Shown here one piece after another: positions 46,182 to 64,000 of a stretch of DNA of 64,000 nt; the stretch's first letter is position 1, and every line of letters begins with the position of its first letter. Position numbers and translations under genes: made by a program. A model generated the notes under the pieces. It saw only the letters and a program-made list of their open reading frames with translations, was not told where the DNA came from and ran no database searches. The stretch lies in NCBI RefSeq assembly GCF_054482595.1, contig NZ_CM137008.1, one strand, 5' to 3'.

Positions 46182-46255
46182 GCGGGCGTAGTTCAATGGT
46201 AGAACGAGAGCTTCCCAAGCTCTATACGAGGGTTCGATTCCCTTCGCCCGCTCCA
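46182..46255 (+). tRNA. glyU: tRNA-Gly (anticodon CCC)
   Basis: 74 nt: 7-bp acceptor stem GCGGGCG/CGCCCGC, anticodon loop CTTCCCAAG, T-loop GGTTCGATTCC, 3' CCA encoded. Confidence 0.95.
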
Positions 46256-46344
46256 AAACTTCCCTAACGTATTCATTCCACTATCTTTTTCTAAACTATA
46301 CGTGACGGCGCTCGTGATCCTCCTACAAAGGGGTCATACAGCCG

Positions 46345-48288
46345 ATGTCGCAGCGTGATAATCTCTATCGCCGTCCAAGTGGTATCTATGTTCTTCGGAT
46401 CACTGTTCCGGTTCGTTATCGCGCCCTTATAGGGCAGCGTGAAATTCATGCATCTACCCGCACAACCCACCTTGCAAATGCCAGAGCTATTGCCGCGTGT
46501 TTGCTGGAGAAGTGGTATGCGTCTCTGGAAGAGTTCAGGCAAGTGGATAAAGAGAAGATCAGGGGCAATGCCCCATTGTTGACTGGCGCTGGCAAAATCA
46601 GCCTGGCGTTGTTTTGCGATTCATTTGGGGTTGGGGTTGAGACTGTCGTCCAGCATCTTCTGGCAGACAATGTGCCGCTGTATGCCCTTGTGTCGAACCA
46701 GCGTGGCTTTTTGATTGATGATTTCAGCACTCTTGAGCGTGATCCTGATACGCATGGGTTCGTTTTGACTAATATTGCGTATGACGGTGCTGAGGCTGCG
46801 GTGAACGGCTATATGCAGCTTTACCAGCCTCAGTTTGCCCTTGTTGAATTGCTGAACGGGCGAGAGGTTGAGGTTACGGCATTCAGGGCTAACAACGGCA
46901 ACCCTCTTTCCCTCTGGTTGTTGGATTTACCCGGGGTGACGCTGAATGCAAGTTCTTTGTTCATCAACAACGTGCAGGCTGAAAAACTGCGTTACGTCTG
47001 GGATAGCGCGCTTGCAGCATCGGAACCGACATCAACCACCCCACCAAAAGCGCCGACAGCGGCGCTTCCTGCGGCCGCTACTATCAACCCGTATTGTAAT
47101 CCGATGCATGCAAGCATGACGGTTTCAGCAGTTCTGGAAGAGTTTCTGGCCTATAAAAATACGGGTGATATCAAGTTAGCCAGTGAGGGGAAAATTCGTT
47201 CCAGAATCGAGCACTTTACGGAGATTATGGGTGATATGTCCTTAGGTGAGCTGGATCGTGAGGTCGTGAAGGATTACGTCAGTAGAATGCAGAAAATGCC
47301 CGGCAATCTGTATTTGATGCGGCGGAAATACAAGATTTCCGACACGCGAATGTTGATCGAAAGGGCGCTGGCTGATGGTCAGCCGGTAATGAGCCGGGAT
47401 GCGATTGGCAGGCATATTGAGTCACTGGGTTCGATGTTCAAATGGGCCAAGAAGGTGCGTTACCTGCTTGATAATCCAGCCGAGAATGTGCTCGCTCAGC
47501 GCCGCGTGATGGTGCGTGAGCAGGATCGCCGAGATCTCTTCACCGAGGATGAACTATTGCGTATTTTCTCTGCTGACTGGTTCAAAACTGGTGCCGGAAC
47601 ACCTAACCAATACGGACGTTACACGAGCTTTCGCCCGTTTCACTACTGGTTGCCCCTACTGGCATTATATGTGGGCGGGCGCATCAATGAGCTTTGCCAG
47701 CTTTATCTGGCGGACATTCGCGTGGATAAAAACGGTGTTGCCTATATTGATTTTAATCTTGATGCACCGGATAAGATGATGGATGAAGAGGCACTAGCCG
47801 GTGGCGATAAATCCTTGAAAACGGTGAATGCTATCCGTCAGGTTCCCCTACATCCACGACTGATCGAACTAGGGCTACTTGAGTATGTGGATGCGTTGAA
47901 AGCTGCCGGGTATGATCGTCTTTTCCCTGAGTTGAAGCATAATAAAATCAAAGGATATCGTGCCGCCGCCTCAAAATGGTTTAACGAAAACTACTTTGGC
48001 AAAGTCCTCGGTTTTACCCGTGACGGTAAGAAAACGTTCCATTCGCTGCGGCATACTTTCATCAACGCTGTTGACAAGTATGAGACCAACGAACGCACGA
48101 TTGCGCAGCTTGTTGGACATGTCCGGGGCAGCACTACTGCGATGACAACCTATCGTAAGGATGCTGATGTGGGAGAGCAATTGGACGTGATTTCGCAGCT
48201 TTGCTACAACTTGCCTGATATTGCGCAATTCGACTCGCAAGCGGGTATCAAGGCGGTCAGTGACGCACGGCGCAGACATAAATCGTGA
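46345..48288 (+). CDS. Tyrosine site-specific integrase with a long N-terminal extension (647 aa)
   Basis: Starts 90 bp after glyU; C-terminal region carries HSLRHTF and GHVRGSTTAMTTYRKD (catalytic His-x-x-Arg and Tyr motifs). Confidence 0.85.
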   Translation: MSQRDNLYRRPSGIYVLRITVPVRYRALIGQREIHASTRTTHLANARAIAACLLEKWYASLEEFRQVDKEKIRGNAPLLTGAGKISLALFCDSFGVGVETVVQHLLADNVPLYALVSNQRGFLIDDFSTLERDPDTHGFVLTNIAYDGAEAAVNGYMQLYQPQFALVELLNGREVEVTAFRANNGNPLSLWLLDLPGVTLNASSLFINNVQAEKLRYVWDSALAASEPTSTTPPKAPTAALPAAATINPYCNPMHASMTVSAVLEEFLAYKNTGDIKLASEGKIRSRIEHFTEIMGDMSLGELDREVVKDYVSRMQKMPGNLYLMRRKYKISDTRMLIERALADGQPVMSRDAIGRHIESLGSMFKWAKKVRYLLDNPAENVLAQRRVMVREQDRRDLFTEDELLRIFSADWFKTGAGTPNQYGRYTSFRPFHYWLPLLALYVGGRINELCQLYLADIRVDKNGVAYIDFNLDAPDKMMDEEALAGGDKSLKTVNAIRQVPLHPRLIELGLLEYVDALKAAGYDRLFPELKHNKIKGYRAAASKWFNENYFGKVLGFTRDGKKTFHSLRHTFINAVDKYETNERTIAQLVGHVRGSTTAMTTYRKDADVGEQLDVISQLCYNLPDIAQFDSQAGIKAVSDARRRHKS

Positions 48289-50477: not shown

Positions 50478-51041
50478 ATGGCGATTTTTGGCTACGGGCG
50501 CGTTTCGACATCGCAGCAGGATACTGAGAACCAGCGTTTGGAACTTGAGCAAGCTGGATGGACTTTCGACTTTTGGTTTACTGATGTTGTTAGCGGGAAG
50601 GTTCCTGCGCTGCAACGCAAAGCGTTTTCCGAAATGCTCAGCAAAATCCGCGATGGTGAAACGCTGGTTGTTGCCAAACTCGACCGACTGGGACGCGATG
50701 CGATTGATGTTCTCCAGACTGTCAGGGCGATGGCCGAGCGTAATATCAAGGTCATTGTCCACCAGCTTGGCACAACGGATCTCTCCTCTGCTGCCGGTAA
50801 ACTTCTGTTGTCGATGCTGTCAGCAGTTGCGGAGATGGAACGTGACCTACTGATTGAGAGGACCCATGCGGGTTTGTTGCGGGCAAAAGCTGAAGGCAAG
50901 AAGCTGGGAAGACCGTCGAAAATCGCCCCAGAAGTCCATAGGCTGATTATTGAGAAAAAGAATAATGGAGCCAGTGTCAGCGCACTAGCGAGGGAGTATG
51001 GCGTTTCCAGAGCGACTATAGCTGCACTATTAGATTATTAG
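50478..51041 (+). CDS. Serine recombinase (resolvase / DNA-invertase family)
   Basis: Supplied ORF 50472-51041; N-terminal GYGRVSTSQQ catalytic-Ser motif, KLDRLGRD, C-terminal HTH; second ATG at 50478 has better SD spacing. Confidence 0.88.
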   Translation: MAIFGYGRVSTSQQDTENQRLELEQAGWTFDFWFTDVVSGKVPALQRKAFSEMLSKIRDGETLVVAKLDRLGRDAIDVLQTVRAMAERNIKVIVHQLGTTDLSSAAGKLLLSMLSAVAEMERDLLIERTHAGLLRAKAEGKKLGRPSKIAPEVHRLIIEKKNNGASVSALAREYGVSRATIAALLDY

Positions 51042-51127
51042 CAATTTAGATTTTTATTACAACTTCTGAATGGCAAGAGTGCTAATCTTGGAGAGTAAAA
51101 GCCCCCAAATGGGGGCTAAGTTAATAA

Positions 51128-52903
51128 CTAATAATGGACGTTTGCGATGAATTGAGGGAGAAGTTCTTTAAAATCATCTCTATACATATCCATATCACTC
51201 TGGAAACGAGAGATTATTTCTGTAATTTCTTTGCTTTTGGATAATCTTCCTGCTGTAGCTGGTTCTAACAGTGCAGATCTTGTTAATACCCTTTTTATTA
51301 CAGGGATCCATAACTCCTTCGCATTTTCTCTATTGACGCCATCTTTGAAGGATAATGAATATTTATTAGGTATCGCTGAACCTAATATTATTTCCAATAT
51401 GCTTGCTATAGCATGAATCATTAACAGTGATACGCCAGGTTGGGTCAATAGCTTATGTTTAATAGTATCTATTTCAGGAAGCTGGTTATGCCTAAATTGT
51501 TCATTAAAATCCGATTTTATCTGGCTTATAGCTTCATTTAAAGAATAGACAAAGATAATATGACCTAGAGTAATTGTATCATCAAAAGCCTTTTTATAGA
51601 GATCCTCATCATCCCAAATATCTTTTTTTCGATGATATGCACTTGTAGGATGAGCATGAAAAGCGATCAGGATTTGTGCAACTGTATCCGTTGGTAATAA
51701 AATTCTTTTTTGAGCCGGAGTTAACACTTGGCGAAGGCCACCTGTATATAAAGCTTCCTTATTTTTCTCGAAATCCTTTCTTAATCTTTTTTGTATAGAA
51801 TCACTGGAGCGAAAATCTGAGCGCAAGACCTTGTTTTGTGAATTATTCGCTAGAGTGATTTCATTAATTAGTTCGGGATTATTAACTCTTATGAACCTAA
51901 TTGCAACTCTTAGCGTATCATCTGGATCTTTCCCTAAATTTGAAATACTACCAGTAGTTTGAGCACCATTGACAATAGAAATACCAGTAACACTTTTAAT
52001 TTGACCGAGTGTTTTGGATTCGTCAATGAAATCAATTTCAAAATCATGGACTAAGGCAGTGATTCCGTTATTAAATACAAAGAAATTTCCTGGGTGTGTT
52101 TTAGCCGTGTTTTGTATTTCATTATTTATTGAGAGGTCTTTTTTATTACTTCCTAAATAAGACCTTACATTAGCGCTGAATAGTTTATCTTCACCGTAGC
52201 TATTATATAGTTCTTTAATAAATTTCCCTGGCATAAGGGTAGAAAATGAGGCCCAGTTTTCATTAGAGTTTTGATAAAAGCCATGCATACCAGTCAGCGA
52301 TATTTTATCTGATATCAAAATTGGACTGTGTTGAGAGTTATATAATTCATCAAGTGAACTTAAACCCATTTGCTTGGAGCTTATTCTCAGGTTATCAATA
52401 TGATAAATTGAGTTTAATTTGTCCATAATTGAACGCCCAATCGAATGTAAAGGTTTCTCACATTCTGGTGTTTCAGGGCAGTTATGAACAAACCATACAT
52501 TTATTTTCTCAATTTCATTATTTCTTAAAGCATCTCTTGCATCTTTTACCTGATCCCTTATCCTCAGAGGTATATTCTCTATATCAGCGGAAAGCAACGC
52601 GGTTTCTGCATAAGCTGTTTCTTGGGCCTTAGACGGCTTGGCCCCTTGAGGTCGAAATATAGTAGATTGATAAGATTGTATAAGATATATTTGTTTGCTT
52701 TCTCTATCGGTCATTAATATGTCTATATTTTCATCATCTCCCCCTTCAGTTATTATGTCGGGAGCTATCAATTCAATGCTGTCTATATTGTTATGTAACT
52801 CTATTGCATATAATGCACAATTTAAATTACCATATTTTTCTAGATCTTTTCTCTGTTGCAATGCTGACCAGAAAGAACTATCTGAAAGCTGTGTATATGT
52901 CAT
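51128..52903 (-). CDS. Hypothetical 591-aa protein, candidate abortive-infection (AIPR-like) phage-defence protein
   Basis: Long uninterrupted ORF in a visibly AT-rich segment with A/T-rich codon usage unlike flanking core genes; no Walker A motif; family assignment by size/context only. Confidence 0.6.
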   Translation of the reverse strand: MTYTQLSDSSFWSALQQRKDLEKYGNLNCALYAIELHNNIDSIELIAPDIITEGGDDENIDILMTDRESKQIYLIQSYQSTIFRPQGAKPSKAQETAYAETALLSADIENIPLRIRDQVKDARDALRNNEIEKINVWFVHNCPETPECEKPLHSIGRSIMDKLNSIYHIDNLRISSKQMGLSSLDELYNSQHSPILISDKISLTGMHGFYQNSNENWASFSTLMPGKFIKELYNSYGEDKLFSANVRSYLGSNKKDLSINNEIQNTAKTHPGNFFVFNNGITALVHDFEIDFIDESKTLGQIKSVTGISIVNGAQTTGSISNLGKDPDDTLRVAIRFIRVNNPELINEITLANNSQNKVLRSDFRSSDSIQKRLRKDFEKNKEALYTGGLRQVLTPAQKRILLPTDTVAQILIAFHAHPTSAYHRKKDIWDDEDLYKKAFDDTITLGHIIFVYSLNEAISQIKSDFNEQFRHNQLPEIDTIKHKLLTQPGVSLLMIHAIASILEIILGSAIPNKYSLSFKDGVNRENAKELWIPVIKRVLTRSALLEPATAGRLSKSKEITEIISRFQSDMDMYRDDFKELLPQFIANVHY

Positions 52904-53053
52904 GATAAAACCCTTTTTATTAATATGTAAATTTTATCTCATTCTATCTAAAATCATTTTTTTATATCTAATGATATAACATTAAATGTATGTGAAATAT
53001 TTAATGGTATCTGCTATGCCTTTGTTTATTAAAGCACAGTCTTCAAATCAGGG

Positions 53054-53161
53054 TCAACCAAACCACAGTATATTATATCCAACTATTGGATGTCGGTAAG
53101 CGACTAAGGCTAGTTGAGGTAACACATAAATAATACAATACCTTAGGGTATTGAGTTTCAT
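53054..53161 (-). CDS. Possible small ORF (35 aa, hydrophobic) with strong Shine-Dalgarno
   Basis: Minus-strand GAAGGAGGGACAGG-ATG...TGA encoding [35 protein letters not shown]; lies between IS2 and the 591-aa gene; several rare codons, so may be non-coding. Confidence 0.2.
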
Positions 53162-53289
53162 CCTGTCCCTCCTTCTACGAACGTATCCACGCAGCGACTA
53201 GACTGGCCCCCTGAATCTCCAGACAACCAATATCACTTATTTAAGTGATAGTCTTAATACTAGTTTTTAGACTAGTCATTGGAGAGCAG

Positions 53290-53655
53290 ATGATTGATGT
53301 CTTAGGACCGGAGAAACGCAGACGGCGTACTACACAGGAAAAGATCGCTATTGTTCAGCAGAGTTTTGAACCGGGAATGACAGTCTCCCTTGTTGCCCGG
53401 CAACACGGTGTGGCAGCCAGCCAGTTATTTCTCTGGCGCAAGCAATACCAGGAGGGAAGTCTTACTGCTGTGGCCGCAGGAGAACAGGTCGTTCCTGCCT
53501 CTGAACTTGCTGCCGCCATGAAGCAGATTAAAGAACTCCAGCGCCTGCTCGGCAAAAAAACGATGGAAAATGAACTCCTTAAAGAAGCCGTTGAATACGG
53601 GCGTGCAAAAAAGTGGATAGCGCACGCGCCCTTATTGCCCGGGGATGGGGAGTAA
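53290..53655 (+). CDS. insC: IS2 transposase OrfA
   Basis: [41 protein letters not shown], matches remembered IS2 InsC. Confidence 0.95.
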
Positions 53656-54518
53656 GCTTAGTCAGCCGTTGTCTCCGGGTGTCGCGTGCGCAGTTGCACG
53701 TCATTCTCAGACGAACCGATGACTGGAAAGATGGTCGCCGCAGCCGTCACTCAGATGATACGGATGTGCTTCTCCGTATACACCATGTTATCGGAGAGCT
53801 GCCCACATATGGTTATCGTCGGGTATGGGCGCTGCTTCGCAGACAGGCCGAACTTGATGGTATGCCTGCGATCAATGCCAAACGTATTTACCGGATCATG
53901 CGCCAGAATGCGCTGTTGCTTGAGCGAAAACCCGCTGTACCGCCATCGAAACGGGCACATACCGGCAGAGTGGCTGTGAAAGAAAGTAATCAGCGATGGT
54001 GCTCTGACGGGTTCGAGTTCCGCTGTGATAACGGAGAAAAACTGCGAGTCACGTTCGCGCTGGACTGCTGTGACCGTGAGGCACTGCACTGGGCGGTCAC
54101 TACGGGCGGCTTCAACAGTGAAACAGTACAGGACGTCATGCTGGGAGCGGTGGAACGCCGTTTCGGCAACGAGCTTCCGGCGTCTCCAGTAGAGTGGCTG
54201 ACGGATAATGGTTCATGCTACCGGGCTAATGAAACACGGCAGTTTGCCCGGATGTTGGGGCTTGAACCGAAGAACACGGCGGTGCGGAGTCCGGAGAGTA
54301 ACGGCATAGCAGAGAGCTTCGTGAAAACGATAAAGCGTGACTACATCAGTGTCATGCCCAAACCAGACGGGTTAACGGCAGCAAAGAACCTTGCAGAGGC
54401 ATTCGAGCATTATAACGAATGGCATCCGCATAGTGCACTGGGTTATCGCTCGCCACGGGAATATCTACGGCAGCAAGCCAGTAATGGGTTAAGTGATAAC
54501 AGGTGTCTGGAAATATAG
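53613..54518 (+). CDS. insD: IS2 transposase OrfB (DDE integrase domain)
   Basis: 301-aa ORF overlapping insC in the -1 frame, matches remembered IS2 InsD. Confidence 0.95.
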
Positions 54519-54640
54519 GGGCAAATCCAGCGACTTCTTGAGCTTCGCCTGAAAAATTTGAAACCATGCGCTTGATGAGAATTGCATCTAGGTTACATTT
54601 GTGGGAACAGATCGTTGCTAGGGTAGCTATAAAATAAAAA

Positions 54641-55393
54641 TTATAATTTATTCATGCAGTTAGTGTAAATGAATGCCGCTGAAACCTGAGCATCTTGCTT
54701 GGGGTGTTCATATACATAGTCAACGAAGGTTTTATAGAGCGCAATCATCTGGGGTGTGACTTCGGACTTGCCATTCATATTATCGAGACGCTGATAATAG
54801 TCTGCTTTGGTCATTCCTCCGTTTCGGCCTTTGGTTACGTTTGCGGTGAATTGTGCTATACCCATACACATTTGATCTTTATGGTTATTCGTTTTATCCG
54901 GGTGAAGAGCACCTTCCAACACTTTATCACCGCTGATGGCATGTTGCGCCCACGCTGAATTGTTGGCGATAAACTTTTTGGAGCCGGTGGCAATACCGTA
55001 TTCGATGCGAATGCCATTATCGTGATAGCTACCGTCAGCATCTTTAGTCGCTAACTTTAGAGATATGCGGCAACCGGGGAGCGTTTTGTGTTCTTGCACC
55101 GAAGCAATAACGGTGTCTGTATCGCAATCAGCAAAGCTGTATGTGGGATTAACATAGGTATTCGTTTTGAGTAGTAACCCGGTTAAGCCGTTTTTATAGC
55201 CTTTTGCCGGTAGGGTTTTAAAGGCGTTACGGTCGCCATCCTTAATCGCTTCCCGAAACTGATCCATCCCAATGCGGATTGCCAGTTGATCGATGCTCTC
55301 GGCTGCATATGATGCAGATGATGTAGCGATTAATATGATGCTCAGCAAAAACTTGGCTGGAAAAACGGGTTTAATAATTCGTGTTTGTGACAT
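54641..55393 (-). CDS. Secreted protein of unknown function (signal peptide)
   Basis: Supplied ORF 54641-55492; probable start MSQTRIIKPVFPAKFLLSIILIATSSASYAAE (55393) with AAGGA SD; predicted signal peptide cleavage near SYA-AE; several Cys. Confidence 0.6.
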   Translation of the reverse strand: MSQTRIIKPVFPAKFLLSIILIATSSASYAAESIDQLAIRIGMDQFREAIKDGDRNAFKTLPAKGYKNGLTGLLLKTNTYVNPTYSFADCDTDTVIASVQEHKTLPGCRISLKLATKDADGSYHDNGIRIEYGIATGSKKFIANNSAWAQHAISGDKVLEGALHPDKTNNHKDQMCMGIAQFTANVTKGRNGGMTKADYYQRLDNMNGKSEVTPQMIALYKTFVDYVYEHPKQDAQVSAAFIYTNCMNKL

Positions 55394-55510
55394 GTTGTTA
55401 TCCTTCAGAATCCACCCCTGCGGTGATTTTAATCGCATGATAACGCTTTGATTCAAAATGTCACTATTGGAGCGTGGCTCTTTAGTGGACATCTAATCAA
55501 ATTCAGGAGG

Positions 55511-55975
55511 ATGAAAAAGACCCTTCGATTTTTATTTGGACAACGTGTTAAGGCTCTACGTATAGCCGCCGGAATGAGCCAGGAAGCGTTTGCTGATCGG
55601 TGTGGATTTGCGCGTAGCTATATGAGCCGCATTGAACGTGGTTGCTCTAACGCGTCTCTTGATGCGATTGAGGTATTGGCTGAAGCTTTAAGTGTTGAGC
55701 CTTGGCAATTGTTAGCGTCCGATTCTTCCGAAGATAGCGCCCCGGAATTGTTGGTTCCATACGCGGCCGATGGCTCGTGCTTTCATCCCGGACTAGCGAG
55801 CACGCGCGATGGTTCGTTTGGTGTAGGTGATAAAGCCGCTCAGAAGCGTTTTGGCTCGTTTTTAGAAGCATTAGAGTATCTACGTAACATGAAGACAGCA
55901 AAATGGCGCAGACCCAATTCTAGCGGCAACTGGGGTATCGTATCAGCGGTTCGTTGGGACAAGCTGAGAAAGTAG
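55511..55975 (+). CDS. HTH (XRE-family) transcriptional regulator with C-terminal domain of unknown function
   Basis: Supplied ORF 55448-55975; start at 55511 (AGGAGG + ATG); N-terminal LRIAAGMSQEAFADRCGFARSYMSRIERG helix-turn-helix; about 80-aa uncharacterised C-terminal extension. Confidence 0.75.
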   Translation: MKKTLRFLFGQRVKALRIAAGMSQEAFADRCGFARSYMSRIERGCSNASLDAIEVLAEALSVEPWQLLASDSSEDSAPELLVPYAADGSCFHPGLASTRDGSFGVGDKAAQKRFGSFLEALEYLRNMKTAKWRRPNSSGNWGIVSAVRWDKLRK

Positions 55976-56150
55976 CTCAGGTGTAAGTTTCAGATTTTAA
56001 ATTACTGAATAAATAAACAGCTACCACATGAGGTGAATGGCCGCACGTTTTATCTGGCACTGATAACTATCAGCATTCCTAAAACACCAAAATACGGGTG
56101 CGTTACGTAGGCGTTACAGTGGCGTTTCACTTCAGCAATGGAGAGTGCTT

Positions 56151-57023
56151 TTGAAAAATAATCATTTGATATCATATGGTTTCCTAACCTCGCTGAGTGA
56201 TATTGAATTACTGTCGCTTCACTCCGAAATTTTAACGCAGTTGCGTTTTAGAGGTGTCATTCGCACCAAGAATAATCCTGTTGGTGACTATGCTGAATGG
56301 CTGGTTTCTAATGCACTGGGTATGACTCTTCTCAGTAATTCGTCGGCGGGTGCTGATGCCATTGATGCTGATGGCCTGAAAGTGCAGATCAAAGCTAGGA
56401 GAGTTACGCCGGATAATCCTTCCCGGCAGCTTAGTGCCTTGCGTAACTATGAGGCAGCCGAATTTGATTATTTAATCGCGGTTATTTTCGATGAGACTTA
56501 CAACATTCTTGATGCTTACAAAATCCCACATGAAGTAATACGAGATTATGCACGGCATAGTGACCACGTTAACGCACATATCGTTAACCTCAAGGGCGCG
56601 ATTCTTACTGATCCCCGAGTTAGTTCCATCAAAGAAGACTTGATTGTCAGGAGTTCGGCTTCAGTCAATGAAGCGGCTATGCAAACCCTTCCACCCGAAC
56701 CTATGGAAGAGGTTTTGAATCAACCAGAGAAGATAACGAGTAGTGTTACCTTGGTCAGCCTCCTTAAGGCTATCGGGATGGAGTGCTTTGTAAACTACTA
56801 CCATCATTTTGCCGATTCAAATTTATCAAGCGCTGATATCATTGAGCAAATGCACTCACGTGAGGGTTACACAGAGAAAAGTTGCCGGGGCCGTCTCAGT
56901 AAAGCGCGAAAAGTGATCAGGGATGGTTTAAGTATTGAGGCTTTGACGTTGATCGCTGACTCTGGGCGAATACAAGATTCTGTCAGAAGTGACGCGCTAA
57001 AACTTATCAGCGTTCTGGAGTGA
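56151..57023 (+). CDS. Hypothetical protein with Mrr-like (PD-(D/E)xK) nuclease motif
   Basis: Supplied ORF 56145-57023 (GTG); TTG at 56151 has GGAGAG SD; residues about 47-87 GDYAEWLVSNALGMTLLSNSSAGADAIDADGLKVQIKARRV fit the Mrr-cat pattern (Asp cluster then Q-x-K); C-terminal about 150 aa unassigned. Confidence 0.6.
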   Translation: MKNNHLISYGFLTSLSDIELLSLHSEILTQLRFRGVIRTKNNPVGDYAEWLVSNALGMTLLSNSSAGADAIDADGLKVQIKARRVTPDNPSRQLSALRNYEAAEFDYLIAVIFDETYNILDAYKIPHEVIRDYARHSDHVNAHIVNLKGAILTDPRVSSIKEDLIVRSSASVNEAAMQTLPPEPMEEVLNQPEKITSSVTLVSLLKAIGMECFVNYYHHFADSNLSSADIIEQMHSREGYTEKSCRGRLSKARKVIRDGLSIEALTLIADSGRIQDSVRSDALKLISVLE

Positions 57024-57076
57024 AGCGGTTTGCAAAACGTTGTAGTTCCTCCTACAAAACCCTCCTACAATGCACC

Positions 57077-57539
57077 GGTAATGACTCCAACTTATTGATA
57101 GTGTTTTATGTTCAGATAATGCCCGATGACTTTGTCATGCAGCTCCACCGATTTTGAGAACGACAGCGACTTCCGTCCCAGCCGTGCCAGGTGCTGCCTC
57201 AGATTCAGGTTATGCCGCTCAATTCGCTGCGTATATCGCTTGCTGATTACGTGCAGCTTTCCCTTCAGGCGGGATTCATACAGCGGCCAGCCATCCGTCA
57301 TCCATATCACCACGTCAAAGGGTGACAGCAGGCTCATAAGACGCCCCAGCGTCGCCATAGTGCGTTCACCGAATACGTGCGCAACAACCGTCTTCCGGAG
57401 CCTGTCATACGCGTAAAACAGCCAGCGCTGGCGCGATTTAGCCCCGACGTATCCCCACTGTTCGTCCATTTCCGCGCAGACGATGACGTCACTGCCCGGC
57501 TGTATGCGCGAGGTTACCGACTGCGGCCTGAGTTTTTTA
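57077..57539 (-). mobile_element. IS1 remnant (about 463 bp, truncated by IS26)
   Basis: Begins with IS1 terminal repeat GGTAATGACTCCAACTTATTGATAGTG; encodes the C-terminal part of InsB (supplied ORF 57092-57586); IS1 sequence stops at the IS26 end. Confidence 0.9.
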
Positions 57540-58359
57540 GGCACTGTTGCAAAGTTAGCGATGAGGCAGCCTTTTGTCTTATTCAAAGGCCTTACATTTC
57601 AAAAACTCTGCTTACCAGGCGCATTTCGCCCAGGGGATCACCATAATAAAATGCTGAGGCCTGGCCTTTGCGTAGTGCACGCATCACCTCAATACCTTTG
57701 ATGGTGGCGTAAGCCGTCTTCATGGATTTAAATCCCAGCGTGGCGCCGATTATCCGTTTCAGTTTGCCATGATCGCATTCAATCACGTTGTTCCGGTACT
57801 TAATCTGTCGGTGTTCAACGTCAGACGGGCACCGGCCTTCGCGTTTGAGCAGAGCAAGCGCGCGACCATAGGCGGGCGCTTTATCCGTGTTGATGAATCG
57901 CGGGATCTGCCACTTCTTCACGTTGTTGAGGATTTTACCCAGAAACCGGTATGCAGCTTTGCTGTTACGACGGGAGGAGAGATAAAAATCGACAGTGCGG
58001 CCCCGGCTGTCGACGGCCCGGTACAGATACGCCCAGCGGCCATTGACCTTCACGTAGGTTTCATCCATGTGCCACGGGCAAAGATCGGAAGGGTTACGCC
58101 AGTACCAGCGCAGCCGTTTTTCCATTTCAGGCGCATAACGCTGAACCCAGCGGTAAATCGTGGAGTGATCGACATTCACTCCGCGTTCAGCCAGCATCTC
58201 CTGCAGCTCACGGTAACTGATGCCGTATTTGCAGTACCAGCGTACGGCCCACAGAATGATGTCACGCTGAAAATGCCGGCCTTTGAATGGGTTCATGTGC
58301 AGCTCCATCAGCAAAAGGGGATGATAAGTTTATCACCACCGACTATTTGCAACAGTGCC
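57540..58359 (-). mobile_element. IS26 (IS6 family), copy 1
   Basis: 820 bp bounded by GGCACTGTTGCAAA terminal inverted repeats (57540 and 58346-58359); carries tnp26. Confidence 0.95.
57592..58296 (-). CDS. tnpA: IS26 transposase Tnp26
   Basis: Supplied ORF 57592-58314; start [31 protein letters not shown] (234 aa). Confidence 0.95.
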
Positions 58360-58461
58360 TCCTTTTTGATAATCTCATGACCAAAATCCCTTAACGTGAG
58401 TTTTCGTTCCACTGAGCGTCAGACCCCGTATAGTGTTTTGCAGTTTAGAGGAGATATCGCG

Positions 58462-59322
58462 ATGCATACGCGGAAGGCAATAACGGAGGCGCTTCAAAAA
58501 CTCGGAGTCCAAACCGGTGACCTCTTGATGGTGCATGCCTCACTTAAAGCGATTGGTCCGGTCGAAGGAGGAGCGGAGACGGTCGTTGCCGCGTTACGCT
58601 CCGCGGTTGGGCCGACTGGCACTGTGATGGGATACGCGTCGTGGGACCGATCACCCTACGAGGAGACTCTGAATGGCGCTCGGCTGGATGACGAAGCCCG
58701 CCGTACCTGGCTGCCGTTCGATCCCGCAACAGCCGGGACTTACCGTGGGTTCGGCCTGCTGAATCAATTTCTGGTTCAAGCCCCCGGCGCGCGGCGCAGC
58801 GCGCACCCCGATGCATCGATGGTCGCGGTTGGTCCGCTGGCTGAAACGCTGACGGAGCCTCACGAACTCGGTCACGCCTTGGGGGAAGGATCGCCCGTCG
58901 AGCGGTTCGTTCGCCTTGGCGGGAAGGCCCTGCTGTTGGGTGCGCCGCTAAACTCCGTTACCGCATTGCACTACGCCGAGGCGGTTGCCGATATCCCCAA
59001 CAAACGGTGGGTGACGTATGAGATGCCGATGCTTGGAAGAGACGGTGAAGTCGCCTGGAAAACGGCATCGGATTACGATTCAAACGGCATTCTCGATTGC
59101 TTTGCTATCGAAGGAAAGCCGGATGCGGTTGAAACTATAGCAAATGCTTACGTGAAGCTCGGTCGCCATCGAGAAGGTGTCGTGGGCTTTGCTCAGTGCT
59201 ACCTGTTCGACGCGCAGGACATCGTGACGTTCGGCGTCACCTATCTTGAGAAGCATTTCGGAACCACTCCGATCGTGCCTCCGCACGAGGCCGTCGAGCG
59301 CTCTTGCGAGCCTTCAGGTTAG
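58462..59322 (+). CDS. aac(3)-II: Aminoglycoside N(3)-acetyltransferase, AAC(3)-II type (gentamicin/tobramycin resistance)
   Basis: Supplied ORF 58396-59322; from MHTRKAITEALQKLGVQTGDLLMVHASLKAIGPVEGG matches remembered AAC(3)-IIa/IId (286 aa); sub-variant not resolvable by eye. Confidence 0.9.
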   Translation: MHTRKAITEALQKLGVQTGDLLMVHASLKAIGPVEGGAETVVAALRSAVGPTGTVMGYASWDRSPYEETLNGARLDDEARRTWLPFDPATAGTYRGFGLLNQFLVQAPGARRSAHPDASMVAVGPLAETLTEPHELGHALGEGSPVERFVRLGGKALLLGAPLNSVTALHYAEAVADIPNKRWVTYEMPMLGRDGEVAWKTASDYDSNGILDCFAIEGKPDAVETIANAYVKLGRHREGVVGFAQCYLFDAQDIVTFGVTYLEKHFGTTPIVPPHEAVERSCEPSG

Positions 59323-59334
59323 AGGCCGTCGACA

Positions 59335-59547
59335 ATGATAATCTGGATCAACGGACCTTTCGGCGCCGGAAAGACGACGCTCGCTAAGCGGCTGCGCGAT
59401 CGGCGTTCCAAATCGCTGATCTTTGACCCCGAGGAAATCGGGTTCGTGGTGAAAGAAACGGTCCCCATGCCAGCGAGCGGAGACTATCAGGATCTCCCCT
59501 TGTGGAGGGGACTTACGATCGCGGCGGTCAGGGAGATTCGAAGGAAT
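59335..59547 (+). pseudogene. tmrB: Truncated tunicamycin-resistance gene tmrB (5' part only, cut by IS26)
   Basis: MIIWINGPFGAGKTTLAKRL P-loop N-terminus; reading frame runs into the IS26 terminal repeat at 59548. Confidence 0.8.
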
Positions 59548-60367
59548 GGCACTGTTGCAAATAGTCGGTGGTGATAAACTTATCATCCCCTTTTGCTGAT
59601 GGAGCTGCACATGAACCCATTCAAAGGCCGGCATTTTCAGCGTGACATCATTCTGTGGGCCGTACGCTGGTACTGCAAATACGGCATCAGTTACCGTGAG
59701 CTGCAGGAGATGCTGGCTGAACGCGGAGTGAATGTCGATCACTCCACGATTTACCGCTGGGTTCAGCGTTATGCGCCTGAAATGGAAAAACGGCTGCGCT
59801 GGTACTGGCGTAACCCTTCCGATCTTTGCCCGTGGCACATGGATGAAACCTACGTGAAGGTCAATGGCCGCTGGGCGTATCTGTACCGGGCCGTCGACAG
59901 CCGGGGCCGCACTGTCGATTTTTATCTCTCCTCCCGTCGTAACAGCAAAGCTGCATACCGGTTTCTGGGTAAAATCCTCAACAACGTGAAGAAGTGGCAG
60001 ATCCCGCGATTCATCAACACGGATAAAGCGCCCGCCTATGGTCGCGCGCTTGCTCTGCTCAAACGCGAAGGCCGGTGCCCGTCTGACGTTGAACACCGAC
60101 AGATTAAGTACCGGAACAACGTGATTGAATGCGATCATGGCAAACTGAAACGGATAATCGGCGCCACGCTGGGATTTAAATCCATGAAGACGGCTTACGC
60201 CACCATCAAAGGTATTGAGGTGATGCGTGCACTACGCAAAGGCCAGGCCTCAGCATTTTATTATGGTGATCCCCTGGGCGAAATGCGCCTGGTAAGCAGA
60301 GTTTTTGAAATGTAAGGCCTTTGAATAAGACAAAAGGCTGCCTCATCGCTAACTTTGCAACAGTGCC
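59548..60367 (+). mobile_element. IS26 (IS6 family), copy 2, inverted relative to copy 1
   Basis: 820 bp bounded by GGCACTGTTGCAAA repeats (59548 and 60354-60367); transposase protein identical to copy 1. Confidence 0.95.
59611..60315 (+). CDS. tnpA: IS26 transposase Tnp26
   Basis: Supplied ORF 59593-60315, same protein as 57592-58296 on the opposite strand. Confidence 0.95.
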   Translation: MNPFKGRHFQRDIILWAVRWYCKYGISYRELQEMLAERGVNVDHSTIYRWVQRYAPEMEKRLRWYWRNPSDLCPWHMDETYVKVNGRWAYLYRAVDSRGRTVDFYLSSRRNSKAAYRFLGKILNNVKKWQIPRFINTDKAPAYGRALALLKREGRCPSDVEHRQIKYRNNVIECDHGKLKRIIGATLGFKSMKTAYATIKGIEVMRALRKGQASAFYYGDPLGEMRLVSRVFEM

Positions 60368-60436
60368 GGATTGAATATAACCGACGTGACTGTTACATTT
60401 AGGTGGCTAAACCCGTCAAGCCCTCAGGAGTGAATC

Positions 60437-61342
60437 ATGACCGTAGTCACGACCGCCGATACCTCCCAACTGTACGCACTTGCAGCCCGACATGGGCTCA
60501 AGCTCCATGGCCCGCTGACTGTCAATGAGCTTGGGCTCGACTATAGGATCGTGATCGCCACCGTCGACGATGGACGTCGGTGGGTGCTGCGCATCCCGCG
60601 CCGAGCCGAGGTAAGCGCGAAGGTCGAACCAGAGGCGCGGGTGCTGGCAATGCTCAAGAATCGCCTGCCGTTCGCGGTGCCGGACTGGCGCGTGGCCAAC
60701 GCCGAGCTCGTTGCCTATCCCATGCTCGAAGACTCGACTGCGATGGTCATCCAGCCTGGTTCGTCCACGCCCGACTGGGTCGTGCCGCAGGACTCGGAGG
60801 TCTTCGCGGAGAGCTTCGCGACCGCGCTCGCCGCCCTGCATGCCGTCCCCATTTCCGCCGCCGTGGATGCGGGGATGCTCATCCGTACACCGACGCAGGC
60901 CCGTCAGAAGGTGGCCGACGACGTTGACCGCGTCCGACGCGAGTTCGTGGTGAACGACAAGCGCCTCCACCGGTGGCAGCGCTGGCTCGACGACGATTCG
61001 TCGTGGCCAGATTTCTCCGTGGTGGTGCATGGCGATCTCTACGTGGGCCATGTGCTCATCGACAACACGGAGCGCGTCAGCGGGATGATCGACTGGAGCG
61101 AGGCCCGCGTTGATGACCCTGCCATCGACATGGCCGCGCACCTTATGGTCTTTGGTGAAGAGGGGCTCGCGAAGCTCCTCCTCACGTATGAAGCGGCCGG
61201 TGGCCGGGTGTGGCCGCGGCTCGCCCACCACATCGCGGAGCGCCTTGCGTTCGGGGCGGTCACCTACGCACTCTTCGCCCTCGACTCGGGTAACGAAGAG
61301 TACCTCGCTGCGGCGAAGGCGCAGCTCGCCGCAGCGGAATGA
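60437..61342 (+). CDS. mph(A): Macrolide 2'-phosphotransferase Mph(A)
   Basis: 301-aa ORF MTVVTTADTSQLYALAARHGLKLHGPLTVNELGLDYRIV matches remembered Mph(A); high-GC segment. Confidence 0.93.
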   Translation: MTVVTTADTSQLYALAARHGLKLHGPLTVNELGLDYRIVIATVDDGRRWVLRIPRRAEVSAKVEPEARVLAMLKNRLPFAVPDWRVANAELVAYPMLEDSTAMVIQPGSSTPDWVVPQDSEVFAESFATALAALHAVPISAAVDAGMLIRTPTQARQKVADDVDRVRREFVVNDKRLHRWQRWLDDDSSWPDFSVVVHGDLYVGHVLIDNTERVSGMIDWSEARVDDPAIDMAAHLMVFGEEGLAKLLLTYEAAGGRVWPRLAHHIAERLAFGAVTYALFALDSGNEEYLAAAKAQLAAAE

Positions 61343-62577
61343 GCGAACGTCGATATAGCCCGCTCGCGACGCTGTTCGCGGCGACCTTTCTCTTCCGGAT
61401 CGGCAACGCGGTGGCGGCCCTCGCGCTTCCATGGTTCGTCCTGTCTCATACAAAGAGCGCGGCCTGGGCGGGCGCCACGGCCGCTAGCAGCGTCATCGCG
61501 ACCATCATCGGCGCGTGGGTTGGTGGTGGCCTCGTCGATCGGTTCGGGCGCGCGCCCGTCGCATTGATCTCGGGTGTGGTGGGCGGCGTGGCCATGGCGA
61601 GCATCCCACTGCTCGATGCCGTTGGCGCCCTCTCGAACACTGGGCTGATCGCTTGCGTGGTGCTCGGTGCCGCGTTCGACGCACCCGGTATGGCCGCGCA
61701 GGACAGTGAGCTGCCCAAACTCGGCCACGTCGCCGGGCTCTCCGTTGAGCGCGTCTCGTCACTGAAAGCGGTGATCGGGAACGTCGCGATTCTAGGTGGC
61801 CCGGCCCTTGGGGGGGCCGCAATCGGCCTGCTTGGCGCTGCGCCAACGCTCGGGCTGACGGCGTTCTGCTCCGTCCTTGCAGGTCTGCTCGGCGCGTGGG
61901 TGCTTCCCGCGCGTGCCGCTCGGACGATGACCACGACGGCGACTCTCTCCATGCGCGCCGGCGTCGCTTTTCTCTGGAGCGAACCCCTGCTGCGCCCTCT
62001 CTTTGGTATAGTGATGATCTTCGTGGGCATCGTTGGCGCCAACGGCAGCGTCATCATGCCTGCGCTGTTTGTAGATGCAGGACGCCAAGTAGCAGAGCTC
62101 GGGCTGTTCTCCTCAATGATGGGGGCTGGTGGTCTCCTTGGCATTGCCATTCATGCGTCGGTCGGCGCCCGGATATCAGCGCAGAACTGGCTGGCGGTGG
62201 CATTTTGTGGCTCTGCGGTGGGCTCGCTTCTGCTTTCACAGTTGCCAGGCGTGCCGGTGCTGATGTTGTTGGGCGCGCTCGTGGGACTGCTGACCGGCTC
62301 AGTCTCTCCCATTCTCAACGCTGCCATCTACAACCGCACGCCGCCAGAACTTCTCGGCCGGGTACTCGGCACGGTCTCGGCGGTGATGCTGTCAGCCTCG
62401 CCCATGGTTATGCTTGCGGCCGGCGCGTTTGTCGACCTTGCTGGTCCGCTCCCTGGCCTCGTTGTATCGGCCGTGTTTGCGGGGCTCGTGGCTCTACTCT
62501 CGCTCCGTCTTCAATTTGCTACAATGGCGGCGGCAGCCACAGCCTCCGCCCCAACCCATACAGAAGGTGAACACTGA
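61339..62577 (+). CDS. mrx(A): MFS-type hydrophobic protein Mrx(A)
   Basis: 412-aa polytopic membrane ORF overlapping the mph(A) stop by 4 nt, as in the mph(A) operon. Confidence 0.88.
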   Translation: MSERRYSPLATLFAATFLFRIGNAVAALALPWFVLSHTKSAAWAGATAASSVIATIIGAWVGGGLVDRFGRAPVALISGVVGGVAMASIPLLDAVGALSNTGLIACVVLGAAFDAPGMAAQDSELPKLGHVAGLSVERVSSLKAVIGNVAILGGPALGGAAIGLLGAAPTLGLTAFCSVLAGLLGAWVLPARAARTMTTTATLSMRAGVAFLWSEPLLRPLFGIVMIFVGIVGANGSVIMPALFVDAGRQVAELGLFSSMMGAGGLLGIAIHASVGARISAQNWLAVAFCGSAVGSLLLSQLPGVPVLMLLGALVGLLTGSVSPILNAAIYNRTPPELLGRVLGTVSAVMLSASPMVMLAAGAFVDLAGPLPGLVVSAVFAGLVALLSLRLQFATMAAAATASAPTHTEGEH

Positions 62578-63161
62578 TGCCCCGCCCCAAGCTCAAGTCC
62601 GATGACGAGGTACTCGAGGCCGCCACCGTAGTGCTGAAGCGTTGCGGTCCCATAGAGTTCACGCTCAGCGGAGTAGCAAAGGAGGTGGGGCTCTCCCGCG
62701 CAGCGTTAATCCAGCGCTTCACCAACCGCGATACGCTGCTGGTGAGGATGATGGAGCGCGGCGTCGAGCAGGTGCGGCATTACCTGAATGCGATACCGAT
62801 AGGCGCAGGGCCGCAAGGGCTCTGGGAATTTTTGCAGGTGCTCGTTCGGAGCATGAACACTCGCAACGACTTCTCGGTGAACTATCTCATCTCCTGGTAC
62901 GAGCTCCAGGTGCCGGAGCTACGCACGCTTGCGATCCAGCGGAACCGCGCGGTGGTGGAGGGGATCCGCAAGCGACTGCCCCCAGGTGCTCCTGCGGCAG
63001 CTGAGTTGCTCCTGCACTCGGTCATCGCTGGCGCGACGATGCAGTGGGCCGTCGATCCGGATGGTGAGCTAGCTGATCATGTGCTGGCTCAGATCGCTGC
63101 CATCCTGTGTTTAATGTTTCCCGAACACGACGATTTCCAACTCCTCCAGGCACATGCGTAA
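62577..63161 (+). CDS. mphR(A): TetR-family repressor MphR(A)
   Basis: 194-aa ORF with N-terminal TetR HTH (FTLSGVAKEVGLSRAALIQRFTNRDTLL); start overlaps the mrx stop. Confidence 0.9.
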   Translation: MPRPKLKSDDEVLEAATVVLKRCGPIEFTLSGVAKEVGLSRAALIQRFTNRDTLLVRMMERGVEQVRHYLNAIPIGAGPQGLWEFLQVLVRSMNTRNDFSVNYLISWYELQVPELRTLAIQRNRAVVEGIRKRLPPGAPAAAELLLHSVIAGATMQWAVDPDGELADHVLAQIAAILCLMFPEHDDFQLLQAHA

Positions 63162-63599
63162 ACGGAGGTGTGCAGAGTCCCTGCGGCAGGCGACGAACAC
63201 GACCGTCGTCGATTAGTACCGGTACGGTCGGTGGTATCGAAGTCTTGATCACCACTCAGGTCTACGGCTTACAAATGGTGACCATCCCGATACTTGCGTC
63301 AGAGCACCGGGCCGATTCTTTGACAGTGAATCACTCCCGTAAGGTTGTGCCGGTGTGGGTGTCCCGGGTCGAGACGATACTCCGCCAATGCGCCCAGCAA
63401 ACAACCTGGCCATCGCAGGTGGTGGGGAGCGGTGTGGCGGATGAGTTGGACAAGTTGGTGTAGCAGCACGAGCACGGCGAGATAACATCGCAGGAGTTCG
63501 ACATGCTCAAGAGACAGCTGATTGCGAATCGCGATGCAGATTCATAACCCGATTGCGGGTTGGCTTCACTCCACCATCACCGAGCAGACTAGCACGGCG

Positions 63600-64000
63600 G
63601 GCTCTGTTGCAAAGATTGGCGGCAGTCAGAGGTAGGCTGTCGCTCTGCGCCGATCAGGCGGCTGCTGCGAAATGGTGGTTGAGCATGCCCATGGCCTCCG
63701 TCAGCGCCGAGGGCCCAATGCCAAAAGCTCTCTCCACAAGGCGCACCTCGCCCCTGATGCCGGGCTGCAGGCACCAGGGGCGAGCCTGTCCTTTGCGCAG
63801 GGCTCGCATGACTTCGAATCCCTTGATCGTGGCATAGGCCGTGGGGATCGATTTGAAACCGCGCACCGGCTTGATCAGTATCTTGAGCTTTCCGTGATCG
63901 GCCTCGATCACGTTATTGAGATACTTCACCTGCCGGTGGGCCGTCTCCCGGTCCAGCTTTCCTTCGCGCTTCAATTCGGTGATCGCTGCACCATAGCTCG
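63600..64000 (-). mobile_element. IS6100 (IS6 family), partial; continues beyond window end
   Basis: Terminal repeat GGCTCTGTTGCAAAGATTGGCGGCAGTCAGAGG at 63600; minus-strand transposase ORF with stop at 63654 and still open at 64000 (IS6-family transposase C-terminus). Confidence 0.85.

What the first reader, a model, noticed from the sequence alone, without database searches (positions are those of the whole stretch)
51128..52903. AT-rich 591-aa ORF beside recombinases: candidate abortive-infection (AIPR-like) defence gene
The longest island ORF lies in a segment whose base composition is visibly more A/T-rich than everything around it, with codon usage dominated by A/T-ending codons. It has no Walker A motif and no family I recognise with certainty; its size, composition and position beside integrase/recombinase/IS genes match single-gene Abi-type proteins (AIPR family is my best guess). 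Compositional foreignness suggests recent horizontal acquisition and possible H-NS silencing.
Basis: inference. Interest (0 to 1): 0.7.

Follow-up and report, generated by a model that had tools for sequence, protein, structure and literature searches.

The report
AIPR/AbiU-type single-gene phage-defence candidate

Summary
The ORF is real: window 51128-52903, minus strand, 591 aa. It is a strong compositional outlier (GC 34%, GC3 0.26, against 0.57 +/- 0.07 for the other long ORFs).

The protein hits Pfam AIPR (E=8e-34), PADLOC AbiU (2e-29) and PHROG 1841 "Abi alpha-like" (6e-93). RefSeq already labels the identical protein "AIPR family protein".

The gene is rare, in 14 of 5,426 complete E. 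coli genomes. It lies in a roughly 10-kb island at tRNA-Gly(CCC), next to a C-protein/methyl-directed restriction-enzyme pair. Relatives in five other genera are solitary inserts or sit in the P2-prophage defence hotspot, so it works as a single-gene cassette.

One new detail: this clade has Y/F in place of the nuclease's canonical lysine and carries an invariant lysine 14 residues later.

Defence is inferred, not shown. A distant E. coli AIPR tested by Rousset et al. was not among their validated systems. Verdict: new member of a known kind, low to moderate interest.

The parts
51128..52903 (-). AIPR/AbiU1-family gene, 591 codons plus a TAG stop
   Evidence: ORF list and translation. Pfam AIPR E=8e-34, PADLOC AbiU E=1.7e-29, PHROG 1841 E=6e-93. 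100% identical to RefSeq WP_021557170.1 'AIPR family protein'. pN 0.067 against pS 0.77 versus the Pantoea homologue indicates purifying selection.
52334..52786 (-). Residues about 40-190: PD-(D/E)xK-like (FokI/Mrr-type) nuclease fold. G54, D57, D61, Q76 and H140 are invariant across the six-sequence family sample. The canonical lysine position (78) is Tyr, and K92 is invariant in this clade.
51704..52183 (-). Residues about 241-400: the AIPR core (Pfam PF10592 begins at residue 242), weakly ParB/sulfiredoxin-like. Clade-invariant (43-sequence alignment): N245, R247, NNG 278-280, VNGAQ-TG 311-318 (T316 nearly invariant), R336, N354, Q356, N357, D363. Most of these also hold across the wider family sample.
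51131..51703 (-). Residues 401-591: all-helical C-terminal region. A conserved patch (H416, Y423, K426, W430, H448) is followed by the most variable part of the protein (456-591).
   Evidence: Model secondary structure. No fold match above noise. Mean identity 35% for residues 456-591 against 55-57% for 241-455.
51100..51117 (-). Terminator-like GC-rich hairpin with a T-run, 11 nt after the stop codon
   Evidence: Consensus scan, confirmed by reading the sequence. This is a consensus match only.
52904..53198 (-). The 295 bp of native, very AT-rich upstream DNA that remain. It carries promoter-like sites (52970-52941 and 53096-53067) and a terminator-like hairpin (53153-53136) that would insulate the gene from upstream transcription.
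   Evidence: Upstream sequence is not conserved among genera. The promoter assignments are consensus matches only.
53199..54529 (+). Context, not part of the gene: IS2 (1,331 bp, insC/insD) with a 5-bp target duplication GCGAC (53194-53198 and 54530-54534). It is inserted 295 bp upstream of the AIPR start codon and is absent from the 11 complete genomes that carry the intact gene.
   Evidence: BLAST of the window against strain THO-010, ORF translations, and the junction sequences.

Best explanation
This is an intact, self-contained, horizontally acquired gene for an AIPR/AbiU1-family protein, and most likely a single-gene anti-phage defence protein.

Shown here:
- Family membership.
- An independent transcription-unit layout, with its own AT-rich upstream region and a terminator-like hairpin (consensus matches only).
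- Mobility as a lone cassette.
- Purifying selection.
- A three-part predicted architecture: an N-terminal PD-(D/E)xK-type (FokI/Mrr-like) nuclease fold, a conserved Asn/Gln-rich AIPR core with a weak ParB/sulfiredoxin-like fold, and a variable helical C-terminal region.

Inferred mechanism: the variable C-terminal region and/or the ParB-like core senses a feature of infection, such as a phage protein, phage or modified DNA, or a nucleotide. This licenses the N-terminal nuclease to cut or nick DNA, which blocks early phage gene expression. That would fit the delayed phage transcription reported for Lactococcus AbiU1. It is the same logic as the ParB-like-plus-nuclease enzymes GmrSD/BrxU/SspE.

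In this clade the nuclease's usual QxK lysine is replaced by Tyr/Phe. An invariant Lys 14 residues later (K92, in an 'NKA' motif) probably takes its place. Whether the outcome is abortive (host death) or direct protection is unknown.
For: Family: Pfam AIPR E=8e-34, PADLOC AbiU E=1.7e-29, PHROG 1841 E=6e-93, and RefSeq annotation of the identical protein.

Single-gene cassette: homologues at 53-87% identity in Pantoea, Pectobacterium, Rheinheimera and Aeromonas share no neighbours with it.

Defence context:
- The Rahnella (66% identity) and Klebsiella-phage (35%) copies lie between the P2 replication gene A and the portal gene. That region is the P2 'old/tin' defence hotspot by my own knowledge of the P2 map, and Rousset et al. 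list AIPR cargo in P2 and P4 loci.
- In the window, the island also carries a PADLOC 'Control_protein' HTH (3e-18) and a methyl-directed type II restriction enzyme (5e-70).
- The literature links AIPR to R-M loci.

Selection: pN 0.067 against pS 0.77.

Active site: G54, D57, D61, Q76 and H140 are invariant down to 21% identity. All 46 proteins of this clade have Qx[Y/F] plus the NKA lysine. About 86 of the aligned representatives of the other branch have QxK, and only 4 of them have a lysine at the position-92 equivalent.

Phenotype of the founding member: AbiU1 alone gives a 10- to 100-fold drop in plaquing and delays phage transcription (review PMC13064643).

Analogy: SspE couples GTP hydrolysis to DNA cleavage, and DndB-like ParB folds bind ATP/GTP.
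Against: - No experiment exists for this protein or its clade.
- A distant E. coli P4-hotspot AIPR (QxK type, 23% identity over the 399 residues of its sequence held in the supplement) was tested against eight coliphages. It is listed only among 'additional tested systems', not the validated ones.
- AbiU1 protection in Lactococcus was modest.
- The canonical catalytic lysine is missing and the second acidic position is Gln, so the nuclease could be inactive.
- 3 of the 14 E. coli copies are truncated, one of them shown to be split by an IS1-bounded inversion. The gene is therefore dispensable.
Confidence: 0.6

Rival explanations
1. The protein defends, or otherwise acts, without cutting DNA. 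The nuclease-like domain is a degenerate DNA-binding module. The protein binds phage or foreign DNA through its ParB-like core and blocks or delays transcription, behaving more like DndB/KorB-type ParB-fold regulators than like a restriction enzyme.
For: The canonical lysine is absent (Y78) and the second metal-ligand position is Gln, not Asp/Glu. The phenotype reported for AbiU1 is delayed transcription rather than DNA degradation. KorB, a ParB-fold repressor, is among the top structural hits, and DndB is a ParB-like repressor.
Against: D57, D61, Q76 and H140 are invariant down to 21% identity, and the K78/K92 positions swap in a perfectly correlated way. That pattern is what a maintained catalytic site looks like. 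Most of the family keeps a QxK motif.
Confidence: 0.2
2. It is not primarily anti-phage. It serves the mobile elements that carry it, for example through exclusion of competing elements or plasmids, addiction, or regulation of a DNA-modification system. Alternatively, in this strain it is a silent H-NS-repressed passenger.
For: The gene is carried by prophages, plasmids and islands. A tested E. coli AIPR was not among the validated defence systems. Extreme AT-richness is typical of H-NS targets (established knowledge, not tested here). The gene is dispensable: 3 of 14 copies are truncated.
Against: Placement in the P2/P4 hotspots is itself the signature of anti-phage cargo. AbiU1 does protect Lactococcus. 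Strong purifying selection holds across genera. No modification enzyme is linked to it in six different genomic contexts.
Confidence: 0.15
3. It is a HEPN-type RNase toxin. Makarova et al. [quoted passage not shown]
For: The statement appears in PMC3506569.
Against: There is no Rx4-6H motif anywhere in the protein. The best structural matches of the full-length model are restriction-endonuclease cores. HEPN proteins (Csm6/Csx1) appear only at Foldseek probabilities of 0.02-0.03. Later literature assigns HEPN to AbiU2, not AbiU1.
Confidence: 0.03

Closest known systems
AbiU1 (AbiUi) of Lactococcus lactis, founding member of the AIPR family (Dai et al. 2001, as summarised in PMC13064643)
   Same: Both match the AbiU family profile (PADLOC AbiU E=1.7e-29). 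Both are single genes. An N-terminal nuclease-like fold matching FokI is reported for AbiUi and found here.
   Different: The relationship is distant, and the AbiU profile covers only residues 39-467 of this protein. This clade has Qx[Y/F] plus a downstream NKA lysine, whereas the Enterococcus-type (Gram-positive) branch has QxK. I could not obtain the AbiU1 sequence, so its motif type was not checked. There is no AbiU2-like HEPN gene next to this one. No phenotype is known here.
AIPR single-gene cargo of E. coli P4 and P2 hotspots (pFR77 from strain E1167; Rousset et al. 2022, PMC9122126)
   Same: Same host species and the same Pfam family. Profile-profile probability is 99.3% over 302 aligned columns. 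It is also mobile single-gene cargo.
   Different: Only 23% identity over the 399 residues of its sequence held in the supplement. It has the canonical 'VQSKW' lysine and is carried by a P4 satellite rather than a tRNA-Gly island. It was tested and is not listed among the validated systems.
MzaE, the AIPR component of the five-gene MZA system
   Same: They share the AIPR core (NCBIfam NF041935 and PADLOC MzaE match residues about 217-375).
   Different: The score is 55.6 bits against a curated cutoff of 1050. Only the core aligns. None of the annotated neighbours in the island is named as an Mza component, and five homologue contexts share no neighbours with the island.
ParB-fold-plus-nuclease defence enzymes: GmrSD/BrxU and SspE (DUF262 + DUF1524), and the DndB/DGQHR proteins
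   Different: The domain order is reversed and the nuclease is PD-(D/E)xK-like rather than HNH. There is no Pfam DUF262 or DndB hit. The motif is NGAQT instead of DGQ(Q/H)R. NTP binding is untested.

Membership tests
AIPR (Pfam PF10592) | Significant match to the family HMM over most of the model | tested here: met
   E=8.1e-34, 118 bits, model positions 1-274 of 308, residues 242-491. All 43 aligned homologues also match.
AbiU (PADLOC defence type; DefenseFinder lists the same type) | Match to the AbiU protein model, as a one-gene system | tested here: met
   PADLOC PDLC02357 E=1.7e-29, profile positions 56-456 of 537. No conserved partner gene across six contexts. PADLOC's and DefenseFinder's own system-level cutoffs were not run.
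AbiU / abortive infection | Reduces phage plaquing, with infected cells dying or phage transcription delayed | not testable with these tools
   Phenotype is known only for Lactococcus AbiU1. A distant E. coli AIPR was not among the validated systems.
PD-(D/E)xK nuclease superfamily (N-terminal domain) | Restriction-endonuclease-like core fold | tested here: met
PD-(D/E)xK nuclease superfamily (N-terminal domain) | Catalytic D...(D/E)xK triad | tested here: inconclusive
   D57 and D61 are present and invariant. The second position is Q76 and the lysine position is Y78. A clade-invariant K92 may substitute, and it swaps with K78 in a perfectly correlated way. Its position in the 3-D active site was not checked.
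ParB/sulfiredoxin fold (AIPR core) | ParB-N-like fold with a nucleotide-binding GxxR / DGQ(Q/H)R motif | tested here: inconclusive
MzaE (MZA system) | Score above the NCBIfam equivalog cutoff, with MzaABCD neighbours | tested here: not met
   55.6 bits against a cutoff of 1050. None of the annotated island neighbours is named as an Mza component, and five homologue contexts share no neighbours with the island.
HEPN RNases | Rx4-6H motif in a four-helix domain | tested here: not met
   The motif is absent. There is no credible HEPN structural hit.
P-loop NTPase Abi proteins (AbiL/Old, KAP and similar) | Walker A motif | tested here: not met
   No [AG]x4GK[ST] motif in the protein.
GmrSD/DUF262 type IV restriction enzymes | Pfam DUF262 plus a DUF1524 HNH domain | tested here: not met
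   AIPR is the only Pfam hit. BrxU is a weak structural match only.

The most novel reading that the evidence does not exclude
The roughly 590-aa 'Qx[Y/F] + NKA' proteins, to which this gene belongs, may form a mechanistically distinct AIPR subfamily. In them the catalytic lysine of the PD-(D/E)xK site would have moved to the helix after strand beta-3. The nuclease would be gated by a non-canonical ParB-fold core (NGAQT, no arginine) that acts as a nucleotide- or DNA-sensing switch. That would be a defence enzyme architecture with no solved or biochemically studied example. A second oddity is that the lineage stays at 32-37% GC in hosts of 44-65% GC even though synonymous sites are saturated. 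This hints at selection for AT-richness, for example H-NS-type silencing used as the off-switch.
Probability: 0.3. Interest if true: 0.45.

Novelty: new member of a known kind. Interest (0 to 1): 0.25.

Why it matters
AIPR/AbiU is one of the more widespread single-gene 'defence' families. There are 4,644 clusters at 50% identity with E<=0.001, and the family is common cargo of P2/P4 hotspots, plasmids and islands. In the solved structures and the paper library searched here it has no solved structure and no biochemistry, and only one modest phenotype from 2001.

This E. coli copy is an intact, easily cloned representative in a genetically tractable host. The domain map and the candidate active-site residues given here (D57, D61, Q76, K92; N312/Q315) make the mechanism directly testable.

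For annotating this window it adds little, because RefSeq already names the gene. It does show that the glyU island is a small defence island (AIPR plus a C-protein/methyl-directed restriction enzyme) lying beside a chromosomal antibiotic-resistance module.

Tried and rejected
- Sequence search of the PDB with the protein and with a 43-sequence profile: no relative found.
- HEPN reading (Makarova 2012): rejected, because there is no Rx4-6H motif and no HEPN fold match.
- MzaE membership: rejected, at 55.6 bits against a cutoff of 1050.
- Two-gene system with the upstream 250/283-aa hypothetical protein or with the adjacent serine recombinase: rejected. Neither recurs next to homologues in five other genera, and a hairpin plus IS2 separates the upstream gene.
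- Conserved upstream non-coding element (leader, antitoxin RNA): the upstream regions of six genera do not align.
- att-site search: only a 12-nt exact repeat TCCTCCTACAAA at 46318 and 57047, close to the island's two ends. Not pursued.
- dN/dS proper: synonymous sites are saturated in nearly all pairs, so only pN/pS is reported.
- Dai et al. 2001 could not be read because it is not held. AbiU1 facts come from the 2026 review.

Full report
**1. Observation**

The ORF list gives an ATG-initiated frame of 591 aa at 51128..52903 on the minus strand, exactly as reported. The 1-kb composition profile drops from about 0.49 GC to 0.347 and 0.323 over 51-53 kb.

The ORF has GC 0.341, and GC1/2/3 of 0.43/0.34/0.26. 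The 33 other ATG-initiated frames of at least 250 codons in the window, a few of which overlap one another, have GC3 of 0.570 +/- 0.074 with a minimum of 0.44. The gene is therefore about 4 sd out. 74% of its codons end in A or T, and there is no Walker A motif. The AT-rich block spans roughly 51000-53200, that is, the gene plus its own flanks.

The only slip is that the 647-aa integrase, not this ORF, is the longest in the island.

**2. Identity**

- Pfam-A gives a single hit: AIPR PF10592, E=8.1e-34, residues 242-491.
- PADLOC gives AbiU at E=1.7e-29 over residues 39-467, and a core-only match to MzaE.
- NCBIfam gives only MzaE, at 55.6 bits against a curated cutoff of 1050, so the protein is not MzaE.
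- PHROGs gives phrog_1841 'Abi alpha-like abortive infection mechanism', E=6e-93, nearly end to end.
- In the collection of complete E. coli genomes the gene is 100% identical to WP_021557170.1, which is annotated 'AIPR family protein'.

**3. Genomic setting**

The window is E. coli chromosome. The gene lies in a roughly 10-kb island inserted next to tRNA-Gly(CCC) (46182-46255), between actS/xdhABC and the ETT2 type III secretion remnant.

The island contains, in order:
- a 647-aa tyrosine integrase
- a 338-aa hypothetical protein
- a DUF1643 remnant
- a serine recombinase of the invertase type, convergent with the AIPR gene
- the AIPR gene
- a hypothetical protein of 250/283 aa
- an HTH protein matching R-M 'control protein' models (E=3e-18)
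- a 'DUF6998' protein matching PADLOC's methyl-directed type II restriction-enzyme model over its whole length (E=5e-70)

The island is thus a small defence island.

Only 14 of 5,426 complete genomes carry the AIPR gene. Eleven have it intact and three truncated. In strain Santai an IS1-bounded inversion splits it. A related island at about 85% identity in strain ET745 lacks both the AIPR gene and the restriction-enzyme gene.

In this window an IS2 (53199-54529, target duplication GCGAC) has inserted 295 bp upstream of the start codon. It is absent from the other carriers. The promoter-like sites, and a hairpin that would stop read-through, all lie between IS2 and the gene. A terminator-like hairpin follows the stop codon. 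The gene therefore looks like its own transcription unit that IS2 leaves undisturbed. This is inference, because these are consensus matches only.

**4. Relatives and mobility**

The word-indexed search found 1,364 relatives, and the top 120 are all about 590 aa and AIPR-only. An exhaustive search with a distant member found 4,644 clusters at 50% identity with E<=0.001.

Homologues of 53-87% identity in Pantoea, Pectobacterium, Rheinheimera and Aeromonas are each a lone gene. Each has a few hundred bases of non-coding flank and sits between unrelated housekeeping genes. The upstream regions do not align with one another.

The Rahnella copy (66%) and a Klebsiella Peduoviridae phage copy (35%) sit between the replication gene A and the portal gene. 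By my own knowledge of the P2 map this is the old/tin defence hotspot. Rousset et al. list AIPR cargo in both P2 and P4 loci. Plasmids of many genera also carry AIPR genes.

All these copies keep GC of 32-37% (GC3 0.23-0.29) in hosts of 44-65% GC, even though synonymous sites are saturated. Nonsynonymous divergence is low: pN is 0.067 against pS of 0.77 for E. coli versus Pantoea. So this is a real gene under purifying selection, moving as a single-gene cassette. Its AT-richness is a lasting property of the lineage and not just a mark of recent arrival.

**5. Architecture**

An AlphaFold2 model built on 43 homologues has mean pLDDT 86.

- *C-terminal region.* The helical C-terminus has no match. 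Residues 456-591 are the most variable part, at 35% mean identity against 55-57% for residues 241-455.
- *HEPN.* There is no Rx4-6H motif, so the statement in the 2012 paper that AIPR proteins have an N-terminal HEPN domain does not hold for this protein.
- *Solved structures.* No solved structure is related by sequence.

**6. Active-site detail (new here)**

Across AIPR proteins down to 21% identity, G54, D57, D61, Q76 and H140 are invariant. The position that should hold the lysine of the (D/E/Q)xK motif behaves differently in the two branches.

| Group | Motif at residues 76-78 | Position 92 |
|---|---|---|
| Enterococcus-type branch and the E. coli P4 protein | QxK, in about 86 of the aligned representatives | Lysine in only 4 of them |
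| This protein's clade (43 + 3 sequences) | Qx[Y/F], in 46 of 46 | Invariant Lys in an 'NKA' motif, in 46 of 46 |

This clean either/or pattern suggests a relocated catalytic lysine rather than a dead enzyme. It is still an inference, because I could not inspect the model coordinates.

**7. Mechanism**

The best-supported reading is a single-polypeptide sensor-effector. The variable C-terminal region and/or the ParB-like core would detect infection and license the nuclease to act on DNA.

This would account for the delayed phage transcription and the modest 10- to 100-fold protection reported for Lactococcus AbiU1. It parallels GmrSD/BrxU/SspE, where a ParB-fold NTPase gates a fused nuclease. 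The steps from sensing onward are inferred.

There are several caveats:
- The core motif is NGAQT, not DGQ(Q/H)R, so NTP use is uncertain.
- The nuclease triad is non-canonical.
- A distant single-gene AIPR from an E. coli P4 satellite, cloned with its native promoter by Rousset et al. and challenged with eight coliphages, appears only in their Table S2B ('additional tested systems') and not among the validated ones.

**8. Comparison, novelty and score**

The gene meets the profile tests for AIPR and AbiU. It fails those for MzaE, HEPN, P-loop and DUF262. The PD-(D/E)xK fold is met, but the catalytic triad and the ParB nucleotide motif are inconclusive.

It is a new, uncharacterised member of a known and already-annotated kind, with a clade-specific active-site rearrangement as the only fresh point. 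A specialist would not be surprised by it. Its value is as a tractable entry point to a very common but mechanistically unstudied family. Interest is 0.25.

The most novel reading not excluded is a distinct 'relocated-lysine' AIPR subfamily with a non-canonical ParB-fold switch. I give that about 0.3 probability and an interest of about 0.45 if true.

Noticed in passing
window 55448-55975 (+) and 56145-57023 (+): An HTH protein matches R-M 'control protein' models (E=3e-18). It is followed by a 292-aa protein that RefSeq calls DUF6998, which matches PADLOC's methyl-directed type II restriction-enzyme model over the full profile (E=5e-70). This looks like a C-protein-controlled modification-dependent restriction enzyme in the same island, and RefSeq does not annotate it as such.
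   Followed up: partly
window 53199-54529: A fresh IS2 insertion (1,331 bp, 5-bp duplication GCGAC) lies 295 bp upstream of the AIPR start. It is absent from the 11 complete E. coli genomes that carry the intact gene, and it separates the AIPR gene from the upstream hypothetical gene.
   Followed up: yes
window about 57077-64000: Directly after the island the window leaves the THO-010 arrangement. It carries an IS1 transposase fragment and then a high-GC resistance module: aac(3)-IId, mph(A) and mrx(A). In other E. coli records this module lies among IS26/IS6100 elements and is often on plasmids. Here the resistance region is integrated in the chromosome beside the defence island. Strain SM107 has the same module about 10 kb from its truncated AIPR copy.
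   Followed up: partly
window 46318-46340 and 57047-57069: A direct repeat with a 12-nt exact core, TCCTCCTACAAA, lies close to the island's two ends: between the tRNA-Gly gene and the integrase start, and just after the DUF6998 gene. These may be att sites of the island.
   Followed up: no
L002, L006, L007, L008, L011 (AIPR homologues in other genera): The AIPR gene keeps GC of 32-37% and GC3 of 0.23-0.29 in hosts whose flanking DNA is 44-65% GC, although synonymous sites between the copies are saturated. AT-richness therefore seems to be maintained in this gene lineage rather than being a transient mark of transfer.
   Followed up: partly
L018 (E. coli ET745) and L019 (E. coli Santai): A related glyU island in ET745 lacks the AIPR and restriction-enzyme genes and carries a TPR protein, a NIPSNAP protein and other genes instead. 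In Santai an IS1-bounded inversion splits the AIPR gene. The island's cargo is variable and the AIPR gene is dispensable.
   Followed up: partly
window 46345-48288 (+): The island's integrase is unusually long, at 647 aa. Only its C-terminal part (about residues 343-616) resembles tyrosine recombinases, and then weakly (XerD model E=6e-5). The N-terminal roughly 340 residues are unassigned.
   Followed up: no
window 54641-55492 (-): A hypothetical protein of 250 aa (RefSeq start) or 283 aa (longest ORF) has a hydrophobic, signal-peptide-like N-terminal stretch. It has no hit in PADLOC or NCBIfam. It lies upstream of the AIPR gene on the same strand but is not conserved next to AIPR homologues elsewhere.
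   Followed up: partly
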